Below, piece by piece: positions 758-13,500 of a stretch of DNA of 64,000 nt; the first letter of the stretch is position 1, and every line of letters starts with the position of its first letter. The DNA lies in NCBI RefSeq assembly GCF_009914755.1, contig NC_060926.1; one strand, written 5' to 3'. The position numbers and the translations under genes were made by a program. Source of the DNA: the human T2T-CHM13v2.0 reference genome, Homo sapiens. The notes below the pieces were generated by a model. It worked only from the letters and a program-made list of their open reading frames with translations. It was not told where the DNA came from and ran no database searches.

Positions 758-1806
758 ATATCTTAATATGCATGCTTAAGATCAATGGGAAATGCAAATC
801 AAAACAAAAATGAAATTAGATATATAACAATCTGATTTACAGGATATTTTACAGAAATATATCAATGATGTGAGTTTATTATGTTTAAAATATTAATTCC
901 ATTGAATTTTAGATTTTGAGAGCTTCTAAAAATTTGAAGGAAAAAAAAAGTAGTTCCAAAATAAATATGCCTCTGTCAGGTCAAACTGCTGGTCCAAGGA
1001 AATAATAAAAATAAATTAACAAAACAAAACAAACATGCCTGAAATTTTAAATTTTAAAATAAAGTATATGTATAAATCCCTTCAGCATAGCAGACAAGAT
1101 TCAAGTTAGCTACATTTTGTGTATATTGGAATTCCTGTACACTGTCATCATAAGGCTATGATGTCTTTTATTTCCAGAGGTAAAGGGGCAATAATTTAAA
1201 AAATAAAGACTTTCAGTCTAAAATTTTCAGGTTATTTACTTCAAGTTTACATATAATTCCTCCAACAGAATACAGATTTTTATTAGCTAATTCATAAAAT
1301 CTTCATCATCACTTAAGAACAGTAATTTGGTCTGCTATCAAAACCAAAAATATACTAAGTTATTTAATAAATTTTAAAAAACAACAATGCTGTTCAGAAG
1401 GAGTCAAAAGAAGGACTCAAAAAAAAATATTTCAGGTAGTCGTGAAACAAACAGGAATTAGAGTCAAGGTATCCCATCATCTGCTATGGTTATTACTGCT
1501 TAACAGTAAATAATGGTATTAGTATCTTACTGTTCCTAAAGCTAAAGTACTTCTCTAGAAAGTATTTTAAATCCGTATATATTATTCTTAAATATTCTCA
1601 TTAATCAAACAAAATTATGATGACGGAAATTCCTACTAGAATAGGGATTATTCTTATAGTCAGTATTTATATGATGACACATTGCATTTTGTACATTTAA
1701 AGATAGGGAAAAAATATATTATTTCAACATGTTAAGTCTTGAATTACTAATCTGAAATTAAAGAAAAAGCCTTAGAGCATTAAAATCCCACACCTGAAAG
1801 ACTTAC

Positions 1807-1883
1807 CATTTTATCTAGATGTTCAATGGATCTATAAATCTCCCCCTGGGATTCATCATAGTAACTGTAACGGAACCTTTGAC
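1807..1883 (-). CDS. MEMO1: MEMO1 coding exon (77 nt; [26 protein letters not shown])
   Basis: Translation matches MEMO1. AAG acceptor, donor GTAAGT 1801-1806. Phase 1/0. Confidence 0.97.
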
Positions 1884-3494
1884 CTTGAAACAAATATCAT
1901 GTACAAAATAAAATAGGGAAAAATTAGAAGCTAAAAAGAAAGCAAGCGCTTACCAAATAATTTCAGTTCTCATGAAAGGCAAAGCACAGCTTAAGCCTCT
2001 GAGAGAATCATTCCCAAGAGCCCTTGTACATAAAAATAAAAGGCACATTTGGGAAGGTAATAAAGAAATGATATCACCAATGTTTTATGATGTTAAGAAC
2101 TGTTTCAAATTGTAGAAACCTTAAAATCACCAGAAATACAAGATTAAGGAAACAAAATAGCTTAAAAGTTAGAAGCATTGTTAAACATTTTATCAGTCTA
2201 TATTGGAAAGTAAACCCAAAGAATATTACTTAAGAATATTTGGTTTAAGAAAACTATCTTGGTATAACAAATCACTAAAAGCCTTAGCTTTTGCTGTACA
2301 AAGTTTTGATCTCTATTACGGGGGAAAAAAAAAAAAACCATGAGGTCGCAAATACTGTGACTTGTGTGACTTTTATGAAGTAAATTTTTTAAAAATTATC
2401 TCATTTTTGCACAACTTGGAAAAGGATCAATACAAGTGCCTTATGCAACGTGAACAGAATACACAAAAGGGTAAATATAATATAAATATAATAAATATTC
2501 CTACCCTGACATAAAATCTCAATAAGATTATAAGCATAGAACATTCAATGTTTTGGCTATTCTCCAAAGAATAGAGAAGGTAAAATGAAAGAAGCTTAAA
2601 GAGAAAACAGAAAACAAAAGTCTCAGAAAATAAATTCTGTTTCCTACTAGTTACATGAAAATCAAGTTAAAAATTTTCTTAACTAATTATGGGGAGTATT
2701 ACTCAACTGACTGCAACGTATTTCAGATACACCTAAATCTTTTAGCAGTGCCTTTTTTCTAAGAACTCATTACTTTTGTATTTCCTTAAAGATTGACCAA
2801 AATGCATTTCTAAAGGAATTAGACCATACAAATCATGTACACACATCATGTGTCTTGTGCTTCACGTTCAGAGCAATGTTGATATATCCAGTTACCACCC
2901 TCACACCTGAAGACATGGAACTCTTCGGCTAGATAATTAAGATTTTTAAGTTTTCTGTTCATCTTACTAAAAAAATTATGTAAATGATGGGCAGTGCAAA
3001 ATTATAAAACCCTCTTTGATGTCCTTTTCTGAAAAACCACACATCATAGAACTGAAACACTTCATTCATTTGTTGATACTGATCACCTTTGATGGTCACC
3101 TTTCTAAAATATGTCATATTTCCTTAATGTTCACATTTTAACTTTTCGTATACAGTAACATAATTACTCAATGTAGCAGTCCTTATTCTCTCCCAAGAGC
3201 CATTATTCACTCAATATTGCATCTTATAACTTAACTGATGATATCCTAGAATTGGGCAACAGGGACTGAAACAATATCTGCTTCCTGAATAAAACAATAA
3301 AGATTACTGCATGTTACCTTAGCTATGAGATCAACTATAGTCTTTGAACTAAAAATTCTTAAAACAATGATAATTTATTGTTCAATGCCTCTATATTGAT
3401 AATTCATTAAACATTTCTTTTAAAATTTAGAGTAAGGTATAGCTTTATTTTTCTGTAAAGAATGTATATATTAATACTTCATACATAACAATGA

Positions 3495-3829
<335 letters not shown>

Positions 3830-5197
3830 TGACACTATTTTTCTCATTGCCAGGTGGCTGTGAGAAGGCTGCTCAGTGCCAAATCTAAAGTGCAGTTATA
3901 ATAATTTATCGATTCAATTCATTTGATACTAAATTTTTACTTCTATTTCAAAGTTATTTTGACAAAGCTGTCCAAAATCTTTCTGAAACAAATGAACACC
4001 TTAGACAAGAATATTCTGACTCACTCTCACTATAAGAACAATATTCTTGGAGGAAATCAAGGTAGTATACACCTCAATTCTTTGAACCTGAACTGCTTTA
4101 GGTTTACACTAATACATTCTCTTTTCCCTGCTTCTGGAAATAGCTGTTAGTTTTGGCTACTATCAGTAAGCCCTGAAACTGGGACATAATCTACTGCTAC
4201 TCCCAGGTTCAGAGAAAAACGCATATACTTCATGATAGTCGTTTGCTACTCAAAAGTCTTTTCTGCTTAATTCCAAGTAAAGAGTTGCTGTTCCAAATGG
4301 CTGAAGTTGGTCAACCCAGACTTAACAGTAAGTGAAAAGTCTATACTTTAAATTGCTATCTTGTTCATATGGACCATTTTCTATGTAACTTTCACTTTTT
4401 AAAAACTGCTTCTGAAGGAAAAAAAGAGGAAATGTTTGAAATACTTTAAAATACTGGATCGGCATGGGATTTAATGAGAATGCAAAAATGCACAGAGAGC
4501 CAATGGCAGTAAATGCCATCTACTTTTTGTTACTCTTTAGTAGCCACCTCATATTTAGTAACTGAAAAACTGACTATAAATATTTGAAGGACTCTAAAGA
4601 ATGTTTCGATTAAGTAGCTAAATCCACACTACATATAGCTACTACACTGAATAAATATTTTAGTTGCAACAGCTCAAATCGTCTCATGGTAATTTTTAAA
4701 AATTATACAAATATTTAAAAATCACTTGAGCAATGTATTCTGGTCAATATACATACAGAAGGCATCTAATTTGAAGTAAATAGTTGTCATCATCATAGCC
4801 TATATGTATGTGTGTATTTACGTATGTCTGCATACACACACACAACTTTAGTCAATCATCATTTAGAAACTGAGTTTAAAATACCACTTTTTGGTTTTTA
4901 TTATTTTAAAAGTGTCTCAAAATTTTATTTAATAATAAAGAAAATTATAGCACAAGTACAATAAACTGATCATAAATACACCTTTAACTAAAAATGTATT
5001 ATTGACTTAAAATAAATTATATGTATCTCAAGAGCAAATATATTTTATTTTTATAAGTTTTTGTGTTTCTGACATTCAGTAAAGGTTATGAATCTAAACT
5101 ATAAACAAATACAATTGCCCATGTACCTGGAGAACTGGACTTTTGTACTTTTTAAGTATGAATAAAGCGTATCACATAGTAAGAGAAAATTACTTAC

Positions 5198-5497
5198 CTG
5201 AAACTTATCCTTTCAGAAGGTACACTGGGAAAATGGATTCTTTGAGCCCCTGTTTCAACTCCAAGTATGAGCTTTCTAGCTTTAAGAGCCATTGACACTG
5301 CCCCTAGGGGCAGCACAAGCTTTGGAACTCCCCTAGTGAGTATGTCAGTAGTTTCTTCAGGTGCCTTCCCTCAGTTCTTTTCAAATTCAAAAGATGAGAG
5401 GAAAAATAACCCAAGAAAAAAATCCTGTAAAGCAGAAACCTTACTCTTTGAGGGAAGGAGGGTAGCTCATTTGTGAATCCATTCCAGAGCACGCTTT
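5198..5497 (-). other. Predicted 300-nt cryptic/poison cassette exon of MEMO1
   Basis: Minus strand: cTTAC branch-like motif, tttctttttctCAG acceptor, CAG|GTAAGT donor. In-frame TAG at 5304-5306 when spliced to the 10402 exon. No transcript evidence is available here. Confidence 0.55.
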
Positions 5498-6589
5498 CTG
5501 AGAAAAAGAAATACAGGTAAGTAATTTTCCCATCTCCAAAGGTGACTGGTGATTAATGAGTGGATTCACAGAGTGTGGAGAATAAGCTCCAGGGATGTCT
5601 GTTTAACACACAACAATCAACTAATGAGGACAAACATAACAATGAATGGTACAAGAACCAATGCTACTTTTTAAGTACCTTAAAACAAAAGGTAAAAGAA
5701 CAGTAAATACCTCAACATTAAGCTATGCACTGAACTGCAAAAATAAATAATGACCTTGGAAAGTTGATCTATAAAGCCCCCAAAAGATCAGTCAATAAGA
5801 TAGATTTTCAGATACATAAAATAAAAATTATACTGTCACACATTTACTTAATCACATCGTTTATATGCTAAGCCACTTTCAAATATTTAAGTTAAACCTC
5901 ACAACAACCTTGTGAGATAAATTATTAGGCCATTCTATACTAAGGACCCAACCTGGGGACATTCATAATTGAAATCACTACCAAAGAAAAAACGTATTTC
6001 ATAAAGGAAATATTATGTAAGTAGCATCAAATAAGGTAATCTCTTTTAAAAGCTAAATACGATCATCCTTTCAATCTGAAGTGCTAATGTATAAGTATTA
6101 GCCTTATCTCAAATCTGCAAAAAGTCAAAAACTAAATATGTAAAATCTGCATGTACAAATATTTGAGAAGACAAATATGATGGCTTGGTTAAGGTATATT
6201 TTAAGAATTAGCTAACTTACACTCAAACCTATTTAACTATTTAGAAAATAGCAACAGCCTTATACCCAAGAGACTGACAGAAAGGAAGAGTATGCATGAA
6301 TAATCACATTAATATACAGTAAAGAAGAAATCTGAATGTTATCAATTTCATAAATATTTAGGGGAATGCCACTTTTAATAAGTGGTATGTATTTATAAAA
6401 AGGTAGTTATGTAAACCAAAACAAATATAAATGTATGCATAAAAATTCAAAATTGCTGAAAAGACTACAGTAAACTTCTCATATTTAAAAAAATATATGT
6501 CATAAATATTCACCAAGTAAACTTATCTAAACTGATTTGTAAAACCACCATAAAAGGCAAATCAAATAAAGCATGAAGTCCACTTTTAC

Positions 6590-6710
6590 TTTTTGTTTAT
6601 TTTTTGTTAGAGATGAGGTCTCACTTGTTCTCCAGGCTAGATTCAAGTAATCCTCCTGCCTCAGCCTCCCACATAGCTAGGACTATAGGCACAAACTACC
6701 ATACCCGGTT
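6590..6710 (-). mobile_element. Degenerate Alu monomer/fragment
   Basis: gagatgaggtctcac...cctcctgcctcagcctccc. Confidence 0.75.
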
Positions 6711-9096
6711 CATAACTCCACTTTTGAAAAATATATTTTCACTAAATCCAATTTCATTTAGAAACTTCTTAGAAGTGAAAATTACGTTAATGAAAGCTGC
6801 CAACAATCTAAATTTAGAAATATAAATTTCAGGAAGGTCAGGAAAACACAAATATCAATCACATATATGAAGAAGGCCAAAACTGAAACTTGAGAAAACA
6901 GAATGAAAATTCTACTAACTGAAAAAATTAAAATAGGTCCAGACAAAATTCTCTCATACGGAGCCATCCTATAGGATATAGAACTTAATAAGCACAAAAA
7001 GTATTGGAACAATTTATTTAACCATGGTAAAGCACACAGACTAGTGGCAAATGTCTTTTCACTTAATCTACTTCCTGCTAGTAACAGAAAGGATGAAATG
7101 AGGTGAAACTATTTTAAGTGTTGCCTGAGAAATATAATCTGGCATTTCTATATGTACAAGACTGGTGATGCAATAAAAGGCAGGAACTGAAATGCAGGGT
7201 TTCTTTTTGGGGAACTCAAATGAGGGGATTGAAAGAAGGGGGATAATGGAATCTAGGTTCCTGTCTCTCCCTTGGCTTAACTCAACTAGAAAGAAAACTT
7301 GAGAGTACTTCAGTACGTCTACCTTTATTTCTCTAATGTCTCTTTTCAAGTCTAAATAAAAGCTACAAGGCATCTGAAAGATGAACATCTTTAAAGTAAA
7401 ATAAATTTAAGAAAATAAATCATGTTTATAAAGAACACTGGCTAACAAATAAGGTCAACAAGAAAAATCTTTCCAATTTACAGATAAAAATCTGGAATAT
7501 CTCTATCACCAAGGTTTTCACTTCACTTTCTGCAAAAGGTAGGCACAATATAGAGAGAACCAATGACTAGAAATGAACAGTGTAGTCACTGCCAGTAATC
7601 TAATAATCAAAACAAAGAAACTTCCACTGTGTGTAGCTGAGTAATTTTTCAAGTGTACTGCAATAATTTTTTTCCCCAAAAAATTCAGGTATTTATAGTG
7701 TGTTAAGAGGAAACTCAATGAACCATTTAAGACCTCTGCATGCATGAGGAACTGAATCCCTCCTGTGAAATTTAGAAGTCAGTGTTATGATTGCTTCTAT
7801 ATAATAAAAATCAAGCTGTATAGTATCTCTTTAAAAAGAAAGAAAAACCATTAAGTATTATCTTCATGAGAAAAAGCTGAATTTTTGAGATGATAATATG
7901 GCACACTTACTAATTTAGGAAAGATACCCATCGCCACTACAATATGAATGTGAGAAACATGAAACTTAATTCTTTAGATAGCTTAACCCATAACTGGTCA
8001 ATAATTCATAATACTTTAGTCAGCATGCAAAAGAGAAAATGTATCTCACTTTACAAGAATTACTGTGGTAGTGAAAAGACTATCAATTTTGGAATATTAT
8101 CTATGTTACACCTTTCACTTATCCCCAGAACCCCAACATATTTCTCAATAAGTAGTAGCACGGTGCTTTCCATAAGTACAAAGAAAACATTTAATGAGTA
8201 TTATTAATGATGATGATACTAAAAAATGAACACTTGAAAAGTTCTACTACTTAAACACCAAACATAAATCTAAAAAATGTTTTAGTCTCTGGATAATTCT
8301 TATAACTATTATTTATGAGTCTTTAAAATTTTTGAGCTCTTTTTTGTAACTATCACCTGGAAATCCTATCTTACAATTTAGATACCAAAATTTCCAAGAA
8401 ATCAGGAGACAAAACAACCTCAATAATTTTCTAAGAATCTAGGTAGAAGGTAAAACAAATTTATGTTTCTCTCTCAGCCACTGTAGTTACATATAGCAGT
8501 GGACTAGGCTTTGGTTACTTTAGAATTCTTTATTAATGAGGTAAAAAGGATGATTCCACAGAAAAGAGCAATATTGAAATGTTTACTGACGTTTTATGTG
8601 AATTTATGTTACAGTTGCACAGGTTGCCAACCTAGAGAGAAAGCCCAGGTTCTAAAAAATAATATCAAGGGAACTAATTATGTAAATCAAGTGATTAATA
8701 AGAGCCTTAAAAATGAAGGAGGTGTGGGACACTTGCTTCAAGAATTTTAATTTTCAAAACATACAGACATGCTTTGTTACCAACACAAATTCACAATATT
8801 AAGGAAAATATGCTGTTTTGCAGTAATGATACTTAAGTTTTCAAGGTCACTTATTACATTTCAAAATTCCACAGAAAGGCACTCCTTTTAAGCATCTACC
8901 TAGCCTTCAGATCTAAGTAGTATACTTATATCCATAAAATGTAACTTCTGCCAAAGGTAGCAAACCAGCTAACCAATAAAATCAGTAATTAAAGAACCCT
9001 GAATATTAAAAACAGATTTAAAAAAAGAAGAAGAACCCTGAGAGCTTCTCTGGGGGGTTGGAAAGGAAGTGCAACTACCTGCATATCCTAAAAATC

Positions 9097-9322
9097 TGGG
9101 TTTCCCAACCTCAGCACTGCTGACATTTTGGGCCTGGTAATTCTCTGATGTGGGAGCCATCCTGTGCCACTGCAGGATGTTTATTTAGCAGCTACCCTGG
9201 ACTCTACTCATTAGATACCATTAGTATTGCCACCCTCCAAACCATATCCCAGTTGTGGTGATCAAAACTGTCTTCAGGAATTATCAAATGCCCCTGAGAG
9301 TAAAATCACTCCAGTTGAGGCT
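9097..9322 (-). mobile_element. MER20-like hAT DNA transposon
   Basis: ttcccaacctcagcactgctgacattttggg...aaaatcactccagttgag resembles the MER20 consensus. Confidence 0.8.
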
Positions 9323-10401
9323 AAGTACCTTATGCAAAAAACTAATCTGTACCATTACAAAAGATAGTTCTCTTGAACTGAGATCTCAACTTTGAAAAGG
9401 CCATTCAGAGATAGAAGCAAGAGAAGACACCAGCCCAAGCAGGCCAGATAAATGTTGAATCAATTCTGGCAATCAGTGGGTAAGACACATAAAATGCCAT
9501 GGCTCCCTATATTTCACTAAGGATGTTCTCCTGGCTATTCTAGCGTTGTATCTTAAAAATTATGGTCTTACATTTTAGGTTTCCTTATAATCAAAGAAAT
9601 AAGTGATAAATGAACAGATATTGGCATCTTAAACCAATAAATTAATAGGTCAAAGAGATGTCCTAAAACGAACAAAACTTAGAAATATTCTGGGACAGTA
9701 ATGGATAAAGGAAAGCAAACTGCATCCAAAGACTGTAGAAGCAACGTTTACTAAAAGAGGCATCCACAAACAGCTCACTTCTCTTACAACGTACTCACTG
9801 TGACGTGTCCTTGCTCTTACAATAATCAAAAAATCACTCAAGAGTCCTTACCCTTATAAAAACATTACCAATGATGACCACAGTGCTTAATAGCCAATAT
9901 TTTATAATCTTTGGAGGGTAGCTTTAAACTGATGGCAATTGTGAGTAAAAACTAAGCACCAAAGGGGAAAAAAAAAAAAGACTAATTACAAAAAAGGAAA
10001 TGTGGAAAAGGACTGGCACAGCACACAGTGCTCTTCTATACTCTAAAGAACATTGGATTTATCCACCAAAACTAACTTCAGAGAATCTACCATACACACC
10101 TACTTGGAAATGAGGTTAAAAGATCTTAACTCCCACTAAATAAGTGTCTAAACAAGGATGCCTTCACAGTGTGAATCCAATTATACCAGTCGCCTTTGGA
10201 AATGTACCCATAATCCACTATTGTAATCTGATCCTTTTTAAAGGATCAAAAGATTTTTTATTCACTTTTAAACACTGCTGCCAGAAGTAAAACTTTCCAA
10301 GGAAAGTGATAAAAAACTGAAAATCAGAGCTTAGAATGAAAAGATACCTTTAACCAGAAGTATATAACATCTACCATGATATGTTAAAATCTAGAACTTA
10401 C

Positions 10402-10544
10402 CCCAATGGCAGAAATCAGAAGAAACCACAAAGAGATTACTAGGATCCGCTAGATATTTACTGAAGAGTTTTCCGAATTCCTGTTCTTTTGACTCACTCA
10501 GAGCTCCAACCAGTACAGGAATAATGGTAAACTCATCCTTATGG
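10402..10544 (-). CDS. MEMO1: MEMO1 coding exon (143 nt; [14 protein letters not shown]...VVSSDFCHW)
   Basis: SSDFCHW motif, visible in ORF 10391..10576. AAG acceptor after a poly-T tract, donor GTAAGT 10396-10401. Phase 2/1. Confidence 0.97.
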
Positions 10545-13500
10545 CTTAAAGAAAACAGAAAAAAAAAAAATGTCATTTAAGATGCTTAAATGAAAGTTTT
10601 CCAAATGTGTTGGCATTAGAAAGTGGAATATGTATTAATAGTGGTAAGGATAACATATGTAATTATTATTGATGAATTCTTAAAATCCATAAATTAAATG
10701 TTTAAAGGGTACAAGGGTACGATTAAAAATATGAGTCATACAGAATACTAAAAATATCCATTTAAACTACAGAAATATATACTACCTCTTTAGGTAAAAA
10801 AAGCTATTTTACTACCAGGTATAATAACATCTCAAAAAATAAAAACAAGCCCATCAGAAGAGCACCAATTCAATTCTTTTCAAGTACTTATCAAGGCTAC
10901 AGTCATCTGCCAAATCCTTCTGTGATTATAAAAGACCATTAAACTCTTCCTCACCTATTTTAATCCTATCCTATTATAAAAACCATCATTTCTGGCACTT
11001 GCTCTATAAACCTGCCAAGTGAGACCTAAAAACTTAATCTTGGCTCCCGTAAGTTTTATCAACTGCACTTTTACACTTATCCTAATGATCAGATACAAGA
11101 CAGTCTGAAATACAACTCAAATTTCATTGGCATCTAGAATAGACAAAGAATTAAAGGAAGTAAGTTTTAATTTCTAGCAGCAGAAAAAGACACCACACCC
11201 ACCCACAATGTTTATGGCATATCCACAAGTCCCTTTTTCACTCTACAGATTGACAGATTTATGGAAAAGAAACAAAGTAGATTAATAAAGAATAACTATG
11301 ATGAGCTATAGAAACAGATGTTCATTCAAAACCTTTTTTAAAAATGTTATTGTGAAATTTTACTTATATATATTCAATATTATTTATATTCTAAATGATC
11401 CCAGATTTGGTATTTTAGAAGCATGAATCATGTTTGTCTGATTTGTTCTCAACAGGACCTTTTTAAAAAAATCACCATTATAATAAATGCTTTTTAATAT
11501 GATAATCTGGCACTTAACTGATGTAGGACAAACAAAATTCACAAAAGTTTTTAAAAATACTAAGTTTAAATAATCCCCAAATAAATGTTAGCCCAGCTGC
11601 ATAAAGCTAAATTTAGGGCACCCAAGCACCTCCCCCATAAGGCCCCCTTACCCTGTCAATTGCGAAATAAACAGATCATACAGATCTCCAGTCCCTCTGC
11701 AATGCAGGGGCTTCTTGGGCAGAATCTGCATCTATGGAGTAAGAGAAAAAAAGGAAGCTGGCAGAGGAAGCTGCCACAGGATCTCTTTCTCTAACTGTTA
11801 CCAGTTTGCTAAATAACTCCCTGACTGAATAGGGGCTCTTCAATTAGTTAAGACTGATTGTCAATTGAAAGAAAAGAATTAATTATTCTAACCTCATCTA
11901 CTACCTACATAAAAAAATACATTAAGATAATCAAAGTGTCTGTGAGTAATTATGATATGATTGGGAAACAGTTATACAGAGTATAAAGAACAAGGAGAAA
12001 CCAGAAGAAATGGGTTCAAGTGCCATCCCCACCACATACAAATGTTCAGAGCATAGGTAAGTTCCCGAATTGTAAATATATTTCCGTATCTGTAAAATGA
12101 TCATAATTACAATACTTACTTCATAAAATTGTTATGAAGTGAAGAACACTATAGGAAAGGTACTTCGTCACAAGAGTTGGCTCACTCTGAATAAACAACA
12201 CATGTCTACTCTCCACAAGAGCCATTAATCCCTTCAATTAACCTCAGTTTGAGCTTACAAATCTATCTGTAAGGAGGTATAAAATTCTATCCTCTGTAGA
12301 AACCTAGGACTTGAATCGAGGCTCATTTATCCACCCCTCTGTCATCTCTCTTTTAAAAAATTACTTGTTCTCTATCTCCACAGACAAATACTCATGAATT
12401 AGAGAAAAGAGCATTTAGCTTTGAAATGTAATACTACTAGGATTTAAAATCCAAGTTCTGAAGTTGAACTTCCAGTGAAGGAATACAAAATCTCACCCCC
12501 AAAAAGCAATTATAAAACTAGATAAAAGCGTCAAAAACAACCATCTTTGTGTTATGGAAATCAACTAAAGGCAAAAACAAACAAGCAAACAAACAAAAAC
12601 AATGAGAAGAGCATGTTCATGAAAAACTACAGAACTTCTTGGTAACAACAATGGAAACCTGGCATCTTACCAGGAGCTGCCTCCATCCCCTACCCTAGCT
12701 CCACTGAGGTATAAGTTCCATCAAGGAACAGCACCTTCATTGCAAAAAGGGGATGACTTTGACTTGGAGCAGAGAGTGGAAAACCCACACTCAGTAGGAA
12801 ACAGAAAAGCCTGCAGATTTCTTAGTCCGAGATTGCTGTTGTTGGGGTGAGCCAGAAACCTGAGGACTAACTAGAAATTTAATAGACAGATCCTAGAAAT
12901 GGCACAGCCATAGAGAGACTTGATAAATTTTCCACACATCCTGAAGAGAGACCTATGCCCTCCACACAACACTGGCTGACTAGGAGGCTGCACGCATGTA
13001 CAGGGGACTCCCATAAGGTCCTAAGCTCCACACAAAACGCAGGCTGAGAGACTGGCAGCGTATGCACAGGGGAAGCTGGAAACCTGAGAGACCTAGCTCT
13101 CCACACACGCCTGGCTAACAGAAAATTTGGGTACGTGCACAGGGTCTTAGGTCTAAGACAACATAATAAAAAGTAAAAGAAACAAACATGAAAACAGACT
13201 ATACTTAGTTGATTCTTTCTTTTAATGAGAAATGGGGTCTCACTATGCTGCCCAGGCTAGCTTCAAACTCTGAGCCCAAGTGATCCTCCCTTCACAGCCT
13301 CCATACAATCTCCCAGCAGAGGGTGAAAGTCTTTCTGGCTCAAGGTGTTTAGGTACAGCCTTCAACCAATAATTAGCTAAGCACTAAATTAAGGAATTGC
13401 AGGTGGGAACCCTACAAAGCCAAGCTTAAAATTAAAAATTAAGAAGTTTTAAAAGCTGGGGAGACACATAAGTGACCACACATAGTGGGAGAGACAGATT

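What the first reader, a model, noticed from the sequence alone, without database searches (positions are those of the whole stretch)
5531..10204. 4.6-kb long-range complementarity linking the cassette to the upstream exon, with competing RNA stems
Seen: 5531-5550 catctccaaaggtgactggt is the reverse complement of 10185-10204 accagtcgcctttggaaatg at 18/20. One of the two differences is a G-U wobble on the MEMO1 strand. Also 5561-5570 tggattcaca is exactly complementary to 10170-10179 tgtgaatcca and to 5472-5481. The distal box lies about 200 nt into the intron from the donor at 10401. The pre-mRNA can therefore form alternative structures. (a) The distal box pairs with 5531-5570, looping out 4.6 kb and bringing the donor next to the cryptic acceptor. 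(b) The distal box pairs more weakly with 5212-5240, looping out the cassette. (c) Local stems 5185-5240/5475-5529 or 5472-5481/5561-5570 hide the splice sites. Inference: a docking/selector-type splicing switch.
Basis: partly seen in the sequence, partly recalled or inferred. Interest (0 to 1): 0.82.

Follow-up and report, generated by a model that had tools for sequence, protein, structure and literature searches.

The report
Long-range RNA duplex beside MEMO1 poison exon
Two short matching sequences 4.6 kb apart in a MEMO1 intron could pair in the RNA right next to a published, rarely used "poison" exon that is itself folded into a long hairpin, but whether this pairing controls splicing is untested.

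Summary
5531-5570 and 10170-10204 are inverted complements: 18/20, then 10/10, 33 bp in all, about -44 kcal/mol on the MEMO1 strand. The pair is the best inverted match in the 8.5-kb intron (1 of 200 shuffles reach its score). Each box is the other's best partner, and the composite motif occurs at only these two places in the genome. It is therefore not a transposon pair. Across a whole-genome scan, chance is still possible.

The "cassette" is real. 5198-5497 (minus strand, 300 nt, in-frame stop) matches MEMO1 exon 7b, a conserved, brain-only cryptic poison exon published in 2024 (phastCons 790/1000, PSI at most 0.022).

One thing is new here. The exon sits inside a 345-nt hairpin (5185-5529, z about -7) that pairs its branch-site and acceptor region with its own donor.

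The "competing stems" switch is not supported. The long-range duplex and the hairpin coexist in every fold. The 10-bp local stem has probability 0.00. Alternative (b) is at background level. Docking/selector membership fails.

Conservation of the distal box could not be tested with these tools.

Verdict: a credible candidate of a known kind, with function unproven.

The parts
10170..10204 (-). Distal box B'. It lies 197-231 nt downstream of the exon 7 donor in the pre-mRNA and is the 5' arm of the long-range duplex.
   Evidence: (I8, I16). It is the reciprocal best partner of 5531-5570. Its opening energy is 10.7 kcal/mol.
5531..5570 (-). Proximal box B, the 3' arm of the long-range duplex. 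It ends 1 nt from the hairpin and 9-13 nt upstream of the predicted branch adenosines. It overlaps a YCAY cluster.
   Evidence: Its opening energy is 12.3 kcal/mol.
5185..5529 (-). Imperfect palindrome / long hairpin P that encloses the whole poison exon. The outer arms 5185-5242 and 5472-5529 form 49 base pairs.
   Evidence: I1; MFE -133.5, z -7.06, 0 of 100 shuffles; plus strand, z -7.23; -4.8 sd against 205 real windows of the intron.
5198..5497 (-). MEMO1 cryptic poison exon 7b: 300 nt, acceptor ...tttctttttctcag|, donor CAG|gtaagt, with an in-frame stop codon.
   Evidence: best of 36 AG...GT intervals of 300 nt. It matches the row chr2_31886788_31887087_- MEMO1 7b in supplementary table ST1 of PMC11632617.
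5514..5529 (-). Upstream 16-nt perfect core of the hairpin (GAAAAUUACUUACCUG in the RNA). It contains the predicted branch sites (A at 5518 and 5522) and a sequence that resembles the 5' end of U1 snRNA. It pairs with the exon 7b donor.
   Evidence: The branch-site reading and the U1 resemblance come from the sequence and from recalled consensus, not from a tool.
5185..5200 (-). Downstream 16-nt perfect core: the exon 7b donor CAG|GUAAGUAAUUUUC.
   Evidence: 9 of 9 match to the donor consensus.
5472..5481 (-). Third copy of the 10-mer, inside exon 7b 16-25 nt downstream of the acceptor. It is the alternative partner of 5561-5570.
   Evidence: 3 copies in the window, 0.23 expected, 0 of 100 shuffles with 3 or more. 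The stem has probability 0.00 in the ensemble.
10402..10544 (-). Upstream constitutive coding exon, taken to be exon 7. Its donor at 10401 starts the intron that holds both boxes.
   Evidence: The hub's RefSeq table; (open frame, GGG|gtaagt donor).
1807..1883 (-). Downstream constitutive coding exon, taken to be exon 8.
   Evidence: The hub's RefSeq table.

Best explanation
Boxes 10170-10204 and 5531-5570 are a single-copy, mutually best-matching pair of complementary sequences in MEMO1 intron 7. In the pre-mRNA they can form a 33-36-bp duplex (blocks of 12, 7, 4 and 10 bp, about -44 kcal/mol) that closes a 4.6-kb loop.

The proximal arm ends one nucleotide from a 345-nt hairpin (5185-5529). 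That hairpin contains the whole conserved cryptic poison exon 7b (5198-5497). It pairs the exon's branch-site, polypyrimidine and acceptor region with the exon's own donor, through a 16-bp perfect core.

My reading is that the hairpin is the main silencer of exon 7b, which would explain a PSI of at most 0.022. I read the long-range duplex as an accessory helix of the same RNA-structure module. It would tether the exon 7 donor region to the base of the hairpin and cover the stretch just upstream of the branch site, including a YCAY cluster. By doing so it would tune how often exon 7b is spliced in, and so how much MEMO1 mRNA is sent to nonsense-mediated decay.

If the duplex acts at all, I favour a repressive effect (stacking on and extending the hairpin) over an activating one, at about 60:40.

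Shown here: the sequences, the statistics, the predicted energies, the coexistence of the helices, and the match to the published exon.
Inferred: that the duplex forms in cells, and that it affects splicing in either direction.
For: - The pair is the top inverted alignment of the intron; 1 of 200 dinucleotide shuffles reach its score.
- It is the best seeded RNAduplex pair; 0 of 60 shuffles reach it.
- The boxes are reciprocal best partners: about -51 kcal/mol against a background of -16 +/- 4.7 over 1671 windows.
- The composite motif occurs at only these 2 places in the 3.1-Gb genome, with 0 in the control. The 16-mer has 6 genome hits against 4 in the control. BLAST of 5511-5590, 5100-5700 and 10000-10400 finds only the query itself. 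The flanks are not similar: 235 of 500 and 264 of 500 shuffles do as well. Together these rule out a transposon pair or a segmental duplication.
- The duplex energy is -44.2 kcal/mol against opening costs of 10.7 + 12.3.
- The duplex is kept at probability about 0.9-1.0 in the co-fold. It is also kept in the minimum-energy fold of the contiguous 5,321 nt (36 pairs), each time alongside the 49 outer hairpin pairs.
- The hairpin has z -7.06, with 0 of 100 shuffles folding as well, and lies -4.8 sd from 205 real windows of the intron.
- The exon is real and conserved. Table ST1 of PMC11632617 lists MEMO1 7b as poison, phastCons 790, split-read support 14, GTEx brain, maximum PSI 0.022. 5198-5497 is the best of 36 candidate 300-nt intervals and carries an in-frame stop.
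- The same paper's discussion reports that 25% of cryptic poison exons have a flanking pair of conserved complementary regions.
- The 10-mer occurs 3 times in the window, all within this system, against 0.23 expected.
Against: - Conservation of the distal box, and any compensatory change, could not be examined. No vertebrate genome other than this one is reachable with these tools.
- There is no strand asymmetry. Duplex energies are equal on both strands and the hairpin z-scores are equal on both strands. The sequence therefore does not tell RNA-level selection from a DNA-level palindrome or duplication.
- The one true mismatch on the MEMO1 strand (C-A at 10192/5543) is a CpG-to-TpG type difference, which is what neutral decay would give.
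- A p of about 0.005 per intron scales to many chance pairs across a genome-wide scan. The extra coincidences were noticed after the fact.
- MEMO1 is absent from the 3 text-readable supplementary files of the PCCR catalogue paper, though the catalogue itself is not in those files.
- Both boxes lie upstream of exon 7b, so they do not flank it in the way the published exon-looping cases do.
- Minimum-energy folds of RNAs several kb long are unreliable. They ignore proteins and co-transcriptional folding.
- Published inclusion is very low, and no regulator or cycloheximide response was recorded.
Confidence: 0.4

Rival explanations
1. The pair has no function. It is either a chance match or the relic of a very short (about 40 nt) templated inverted duplication. 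It may or may not pair in the RNA, and it has no measurable effect on splicing. The hairpin alone explains why exon 7b is silent.
For: - An 18/20 match alone is near chance (0.37 expected per 5.9 kb).
- 1 of 200 shuffles reach the gapped score, and the best of 60 shuffles reaches -52.2 against -53.7. Across roughly 48,000 human windows, many such pairs would occur by chance.
- Both differences between the boxes are transitions, one of them at a CpG, as neutral decay predicts.
- There is no strand asymmetry.
- Similarity stops abruptly at the box edges.
Against: - The composite motif is unique to these two sites in the genome.
- The boxes are reciprocal best partners at about 7 sd.
- A third copy of the 10-mer lies 80 nt away.
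- The proximal box abuts, to within one nucleotide, the hairpin of a highly conserved poison exon.
- The two paired blocks are nearly intact while the 10-nt/5-nt spacer between them has diverged. That pattern fits constraint on the blocks better than uniform decay.
Confidence: 0.35
2. This is the first reader's model: a docking/selector-type switch. The distal box chooses between mutually exclusive structures. Pairing with 5531-5570 brings the exon 7 donor next to the exon 7b acceptor and activates the exon. Pairing with 5212-5240, or the local stems, silences it.
For: - The duplex would shorten the donor-to-acceptor path from about 4.9 kb to about 230 nt (coordinates).
- The 10-mer of box B has two exact partners, at 10170-10179 and 5472-5481.
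- During transcription the distal box is available before the downstream arm of the hairpin exists (inference from the order of the sequence).
Against: - The duplex and the main hairpin are not exclusive; they coexist.
- The 10-bp local stem has probability 0.00.
- Pairing with 5199-5254 is at background (rank 89-113 of 1671).
- Only one full partner exists in the genome.
- The RefSeq table lists no cluster of mutually exclusive exons.
- Similarity between the hairpin arms and the boxes is limited to the 10-mer. Outside it, the tails are not similar (82 to 257 of 500 shuffles do as well).
Confidence: 0.12
3. This is a DNA-level element. The boxes and the palindrome act as protein-binding sites or as a cruciform-prone structure within the RefSeq enhancer 5008-5915. 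The RNA complementarity is a by-product.
For: - The hub's annotation places an enhancer over 5008-5915, which covers the hairpin and box B.
- The palindrome and the duplex are equally good on both strands, as expected for a DNA-level feature.
Against: - The distal box lies 4.3 kb outside the annotated enhancer.
- The composite motif recurs nowhere else in the genome. That is unlike a general transcription-factor module.
- The palindrome arms carry a perfect donor and a strong acceptor that are used in brain RNA.
Confidence: 0.08

Closest known systems
[quoted passage not shown] 2021, PMC8052449). I saw the search listing, the start of the abstract and a search of the supplements only.
   Same: Two intronic boxes of 10 nt or more lie within 10 kb in one gene and are predicted to form a stable long-range duplex near a regulated exon.
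   Different: Conservation of both arms, which defines the class, was not testable here. MEMO1 does not appear in the 3 text-readable supplements.
RNA structures that control poison-exon skipping in BRD2 and BRD3 (PMC10789245; search listing and start of the abstract only).
   Same: A conserved poison exon whose use is proposed to depend on intronic complementary regions. The exon 7b list comes from the same laboratory.
   Different: According to that abstract and the discussion of PMC11632617, those structures flank the exon and loop it out. Here both long-range boxes lie upstream of the exon, and the exon-enclosing structure is a local hairpin whose arms include the splice sites themselves.
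Dscam1 docking-site / selector-sequence system (recalled knowledge; PMC8791459 and PMC12962786 seen as listings only).
   Same: An upstream intronic box is complementary to a box just upstream of an alternative exon. One 10-mer has two possible partners.
   Different: There is no array of mutually exclusive exons. There is only one full-length selector. The alternative structures are not exclusive.
Donor-site sequestration by a stem, as at MAPT exon 10 and SMN2 exon 7 TSL2 (recalled knowledge, not from any call).
   Same: The exon 7b donor lies in a stable helix (16 perfect bp within 49 outer pairs). That should hinder U1 binding.
   Different: The stem here spans about 300 nt. Its other arm is the exon's own branch-site and acceptor region, so both splice sites are buried by a single helix.

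Membership tests
   33 bp, -44.2 kcal/mol; gapped score 41.
PCCR (pair of conserved complementary regions) | Both arms intronic, in the same gene, no more than about 10 kb apart (recalled) | tested here: met
   Both arms lie in intron 1884-10401 of MEMO1, 4.6 kb apart (and the hub's table).
PCCR (pair of conserved complementary regions) | Both arms lie in evolutionarily conserved intronic regions | not testable with these tools
   No other vertebrate genome is reachable. The only evidence is indirect: exon 7b, 34 nt from box B, has a mean phastCons of 790/1000. Nothing is known for the distal box.
PCCR (pair of conserved complementary regions) | Listed in the published catalogue | tested here: inconclusive
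   There are 0 occurrences of MEMO1 in the 3 text-readable supplementary files of PMC8052449. The full catalogue is not among them. Paper reading closed.
Docking-site/selector-sequence system (Dscam type) | A cluster of mutually exclusive alternative exons | tested here: not met
   The RefSeq table shows no such cluster in this intron. Only one cassette (5198-5497) was identified.
Docking-site/selector-sequence system (Dscam type) | One docking site complementary to several selectors, one per variant exon | tested here: not met
   The composite motif is present only twice in the genome. The 20-mer occurs twice in the window even with 3 mismatches allowed. Only the 10-mer has a second partner.
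Docking-site/selector-sequence system (Dscam type) | The alternative pairings are mutually exclusive | tested here: not met
   The long-range duplex and the hairpin coexist. The one exclusive stem has probability 0.00.
Cryptic/poison cassette exon | Functional splice sites, RNA-seq support and a premature stop on inclusion | tested here: met
   Donor 9 of 9, pyrimidine tract 17 of 20. In-frame stop. Published split-read support 14, coverage 20, labelled 'poison'. The mapping from GRCh38 to this assembly is inferred from gene, strand, exon number, the 300-nt length and the splice sites.
Interspersed repeat pair (for example inverted transposon copies) | Many related copies in the genome, with homology extending beyond the core | tested here: not met
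   Only self-hits. Motif counts are at control level. The flanks are not similar. No repeat library (Dfam/RepeatMasker) was available, so very old families cannot be excluded.

The most novel reading that the evidence does not exclude
MEMO1 dosage is set by a conserved three-part RNA device.
1. A 345-nt hairpin uses a U1-5'-end-like sequence to lock the donor of poison exon 7b against the exon's own branch site and acceptor.
2. A 33-bp bridge to a box 200 nt from the exon 7 donor stacks on that hairpin.
3. A YCAY cluster inside the bridge arm lets a neuronal factor such as NOVA compete with the bridge. That would give the brain-only use of the exon.

This would be a protein-gated long-range RNA switch for unproductive splicing.
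Probability: 0.08. Interest if true: 0.7.

Novelty: new member of a known kind. Interest (0 to 1): 0.45.

Why it matters
MEMO1 is a conserved gene that mediates cell motility. A structure-controlled poison exon would be a handle on its dosage, and antisense oligonucleotides against one arm could raise or lower productive mRNA.

More generally, this locus is a clean test case. It has only one Alu and no inverted Alu pair, both boxes are single-copy, and the poison exon is published and highly conserved. It could show how a local exon-enclosing hairpin and a kilobase-range bridge cooperate.

If the boxes prove not to be conserved, the case is an example of how strong, unique complementarity can arise without function.

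Tried and rejected
1. Transposon or repeat origin of the boxes or the palindrome. BLAST of the genome gave only self-hits. Motif counts are at control level. Rfam found nothing at either box or the hairpin; its only matches in 1700-10700 were Alu/SRP-like hits at 3546-3828 plus three weak hits elsewhere.

2. A larger inverted duplication with the hairpin as an insertion. The co-fold suggested it, but the flanks are no more similar than shuffles.

3. A third helix closing a three-way junction (10215-10224 with 5174-5182). It appears in the folds but is at background level: 218 of 1174 windows and 749 of 2956 random window pairs do as well.

4. A four-copy repeat family (A, A', B, B'). The apparent alignment rests only on the shared 10-mer. 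Outside it, the tails are not similar.

6. Literature. No paper holds MEMO1 together with 'cryptic exon', 'conserved complementary regions', 'poison exon', 'long-range RNA', or 'alternative splicing' plus 'intron 7' (0 papers each). These searches cover main texts only.

- Paper reading closed. The supplements of PMC10573301 (RIC-seq) and PMC10691357, which may list contacts or structures in MEMO1, could therefore not be seen. The methods of PMC8052449 could not be read either.
Full report
**1. The observation**

Reading the window confirms every stated string. 5531-5550 and 10185-10204 are inverted complements at 18 of 20 positions (pair I8). 5561-5570 is exactly complementary to 10170-10179 and to 5472-5481.

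A gapped alignment joins the two blocks colinearly: 40 nt against 35 nt, 33 matches, 2 mismatches, 5 gap columns, score 41. With softer scoring the match extends only to 5575/10165.

On the MEMO1 (minus) strand the duplex has blocks of 12, 7, 4 and 10 bp, with one U-G wobble and one C-A mismatch, at -44.2 kcal/mol. The opposite strand gives -45.0. The wobble therefore says nothing about which strand matters.

**2. Is it more than chance?**

- An 18/20 inverted match alone is near chance: 0.37 are expected per 5.9 kb (30 shuffles).
- The two-block match is the highest-scoring inverted alignment in intron 1884-10401, and 1 of 200 dinucleotide shuffles reach 41 or more.
- By seeded RNAduplex it is also the intron's best pair (-53.7). 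None of 60 shuffles reach it, although the best shuffle comes close at -52.2.
- Each box is the other's best partner among 1671 windows of the intron: about -51 kcal/mol against -16 +/- 4.7.
- The 10-mer TGTGAATCCA occurs 3 times in the 64-kb window, all in this system, against 0.23 expected; 0 of 100 shuffles have 3 or more.

Against this, about 0.005 per intron scales to many chance pairs in a genome-wide scan. The added coincidences were noticed after the fact. Elsewhere in the window, hundreds of stronger inverted pairs exist (612 seed pairs at 41 or more). To judge from their seed words and from the hub's masked stretches, these look like Alu pairs in other introns (no repeat annotation was available to confirm this).

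**3. What the boxes are not**

- BLAST of 5511-5590, 5100-5700 and 10000-10400 against the whole assembly returns only the query itself.
- The 16-mer core has 6 genome hits against 4 for the reversed control.
- The composite motif (10-mer, a gap of 3-14, then 10 more bases) occurs at only these two places in 3.1 Gb, with 0 in the control.
- Sequence outside the boxes is not similar. For the left flank, 235 of 500 shuffles score as well; for the right flank, 264 of 500.
- Rfam has nothing at the boxes or the hairpin.

The pair is therefore not two copies of an interspersed repeat, and not a segmental duplication. No repeat library was available, so a very ancient family cannot be fully excluded.

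**4. The cassette is a published exon**

On the minus strand, 5198-5497 is bounded by ...tttctttttctcag| and CAG|gtaagt. It is the best of the 36 AG...GT intervals of 300 nt in the intron (donor 9 of 9, pyrimidines 17 of 20).

Inserted between the coding exons 10402-10544 and 1807-1883, it brings an in-frame stop. One search used an end one base off; the stop lies upstream of that end.

Supplementary table ST1 of Margasyuk et al. 2024 (PMC11632617) lists chr2_31886788_31887087_- as MEMO1 exon 7b. I saw that paper's abstract, passages and ST1. The row reads:
- labelled 'poison'
- not in VastDB or CHESS
- mean 100-vertebrate phastCons 790 of 1000 (the paper's median is 280)
- split-read support 14, coverage 20
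- GTEx tissue brain, maximum PSI 0.022
- cycloheximide dPSI 0.0
- no ENCODE regulator

The match to the window rests on gene, strand, 300-nt length, exon number and splice sites. The coordinate offset between assemblies (48,410) is my arithmetic. A liftOver was not possible. MEMO1 is not mentioned in that paper's main text (0 occurrences).

**5. The surroundings: a 345-nt hairpin (new here)**

5185-5529 is an imperfect palindrome. The outer arms 5185-5242 and 5472-5529 form 49 pairs, including a perfect 16-mer core at 5185-5200 / 5514-5529.

- The 356-nt window folds at -133.5 kcal/mol, z -7.06, with 0 of 100 shuffles as good.
- The plus strand gives z -7.23.
- Against 205 real windows of the same intron it lies 4.8 sd below the GC regression, the strongest in the intron.

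In the MEMO1 RNA, the upstream arm carries the predicted branch sites (A at 5518 and 5522), the pyrimidine tract and the acceptor. The downstream arm carries the donor. The branch-site segment reads ACUUACCUG, which resembles the 5' end of U1 snRNA (recalled, not tested), and it pairs with CAGGUAAGU.

One helix therefore buries both splice sites. This is a sufficient explanation for the exon's near-silence. Because of the palindrome, the plus strand carries a mirror pseudo-exon (5217-5516, also 300 nt).

**6. How the long-range duplex relates to the hairpin**

Box B ends at 5531 and the hairpin starts at 5529. In the local ensemble the hairpin dominates: the mean probability of 5500-5529 pairing with 5185-5215 is 0.82. 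The 10-bp stem 5561-5570/5472-5481 has probability 0.00.

Opening the boxes costs 10.7 and 12.3 kcal/mol, against -44.2 for the duplex. Co-folding 201 nt around the distal box with 521 nt around the exon gains 32.4 kcal/mol. The box pairs sit at probability about 0.9-1.0 and all 49 outer hairpin pairs are kept.

The minimum-energy fold of the contiguous 5,321 nt (10420 down to 5100) keeps 36 box pairs and 49 hairpin pairs. The two main structures are therefore compatible, not competing.

A possible third helix that would close a junction is at background.

Caveats: these are equilibrium predictions. They ignore proteins and transcription kinetics. The multiloop model carries no penalty for a 4.6-kb loop; by my own estimate from the usual logarithmic extrapolation, that penalty is several kcal/mol and does not change the sign.

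**7. Mechanism**

Most likely (0.40), the boxes are a genuine long-range element of the structure module around exon 7b. The hairpin is the main silencer. The bridge tethers the exon 7 donor region to the hairpin base and covers the 40 nt just upstream of the branch site.

I cannot decide the direction of the effect. I lean to repression, through stacking on the hairpin and occlusion of the region where U2 snRNP anchors. Activation is also plausible, by bringing the donor within about 230 nt of the acceptor before the downstream hairpin arm is transcribed.

The rivals are:
- a functionless coincidence or a short templated duplication (0.35)
- a DNA-level element of the annotated enhancer 5008-5915 (0.08)

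Equal scores on both strands, and a CpG-type mismatch, keep the neutral reading alive.

**8. Comparison with known systems**

The pair works like a PCCR-type long-range pre-mRNA structure next to a poison exon, as described for BRD2 and BRD3 by the same laboratory (listing only). That laboratory reports that 25% of cryptic poison exons have a flanking PCCR.

Membership in the PCCR class needs both arms to be conserved, which I could not test. Membership in the Dscam docking/selector class fails on three tested features.

No paper in the searchable library links MEMO1 to a poison exon, a cryptic exon or a long-range structure in its main text.

**9. Verdict**

This is a new candidate member of a known kind. 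The exon-enclosing hairpin is, in my view, the more solid and more interesting feature. Interest 0.45.

Noticed in passing
window 5185-5529 (both strands): The whole poison exon 7b lies inside a 345-nt imperfect palindrome. Its z-score is about -7 on both strands, the strongest structure in the intron. Because of the symmetry, the plus strand carries a mirror pseudo-exon at 5217-5516, also 300 nt, with ...cctttcag| and ACAG|gtaagt.
   Followed up: yes
window 5536-5591, minus strand: Box B overlaps one of the three densest YCAY clusters of the 8.5-kb intron: 4-5 per 40 nt against a mean of about 0.56. YCAY clusters are the recalled NOVA binding motif, and the exon is reported only in brain. Pairing with the distal box would hide this cluster.
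   Followed up: partly
window 5514-5529, minus strand: The segment just upstream of the exon 7b pyrimidine tract reads ACUUACCUG, which matches the recalled 5' end of U1 snRNA. It is a perfect 16-nt complement of the exon's own donor, so it would act as an in-cis U1 mimic.
   Followed up: partly
window 5304-5313: A perfect 10-bp self-complementary word, CCCCTAGGGG, lies inside exon 7b and forms a side hairpin in the predicted fold.
   Followed up: no
window 3546-3828, minus strand: Rfam SRP and miRNA-family hits mark one Alu-like element. It coincides with the only masked stretch that the hub's list places in this intron (3519-3835). No other inverted pair in the intron reaches score 41, so no inverted Alu pair competes with the boxes here.
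   Followed up: partly
window 10232-10249: A local 8-bp palindrome, GATCCTTT..AAAGGATC, lies about 30 nt upstream (in the RNA) of the distal box.
   Followed up: no
window 9189-9244 versus 5526-5580: This is the second-best partner of box B in the intron: -36.5 kcal/mol, with a 21-nt arm at 76% complementarity (pair I15). It is far weaker than the distal box.
   Followed up: no
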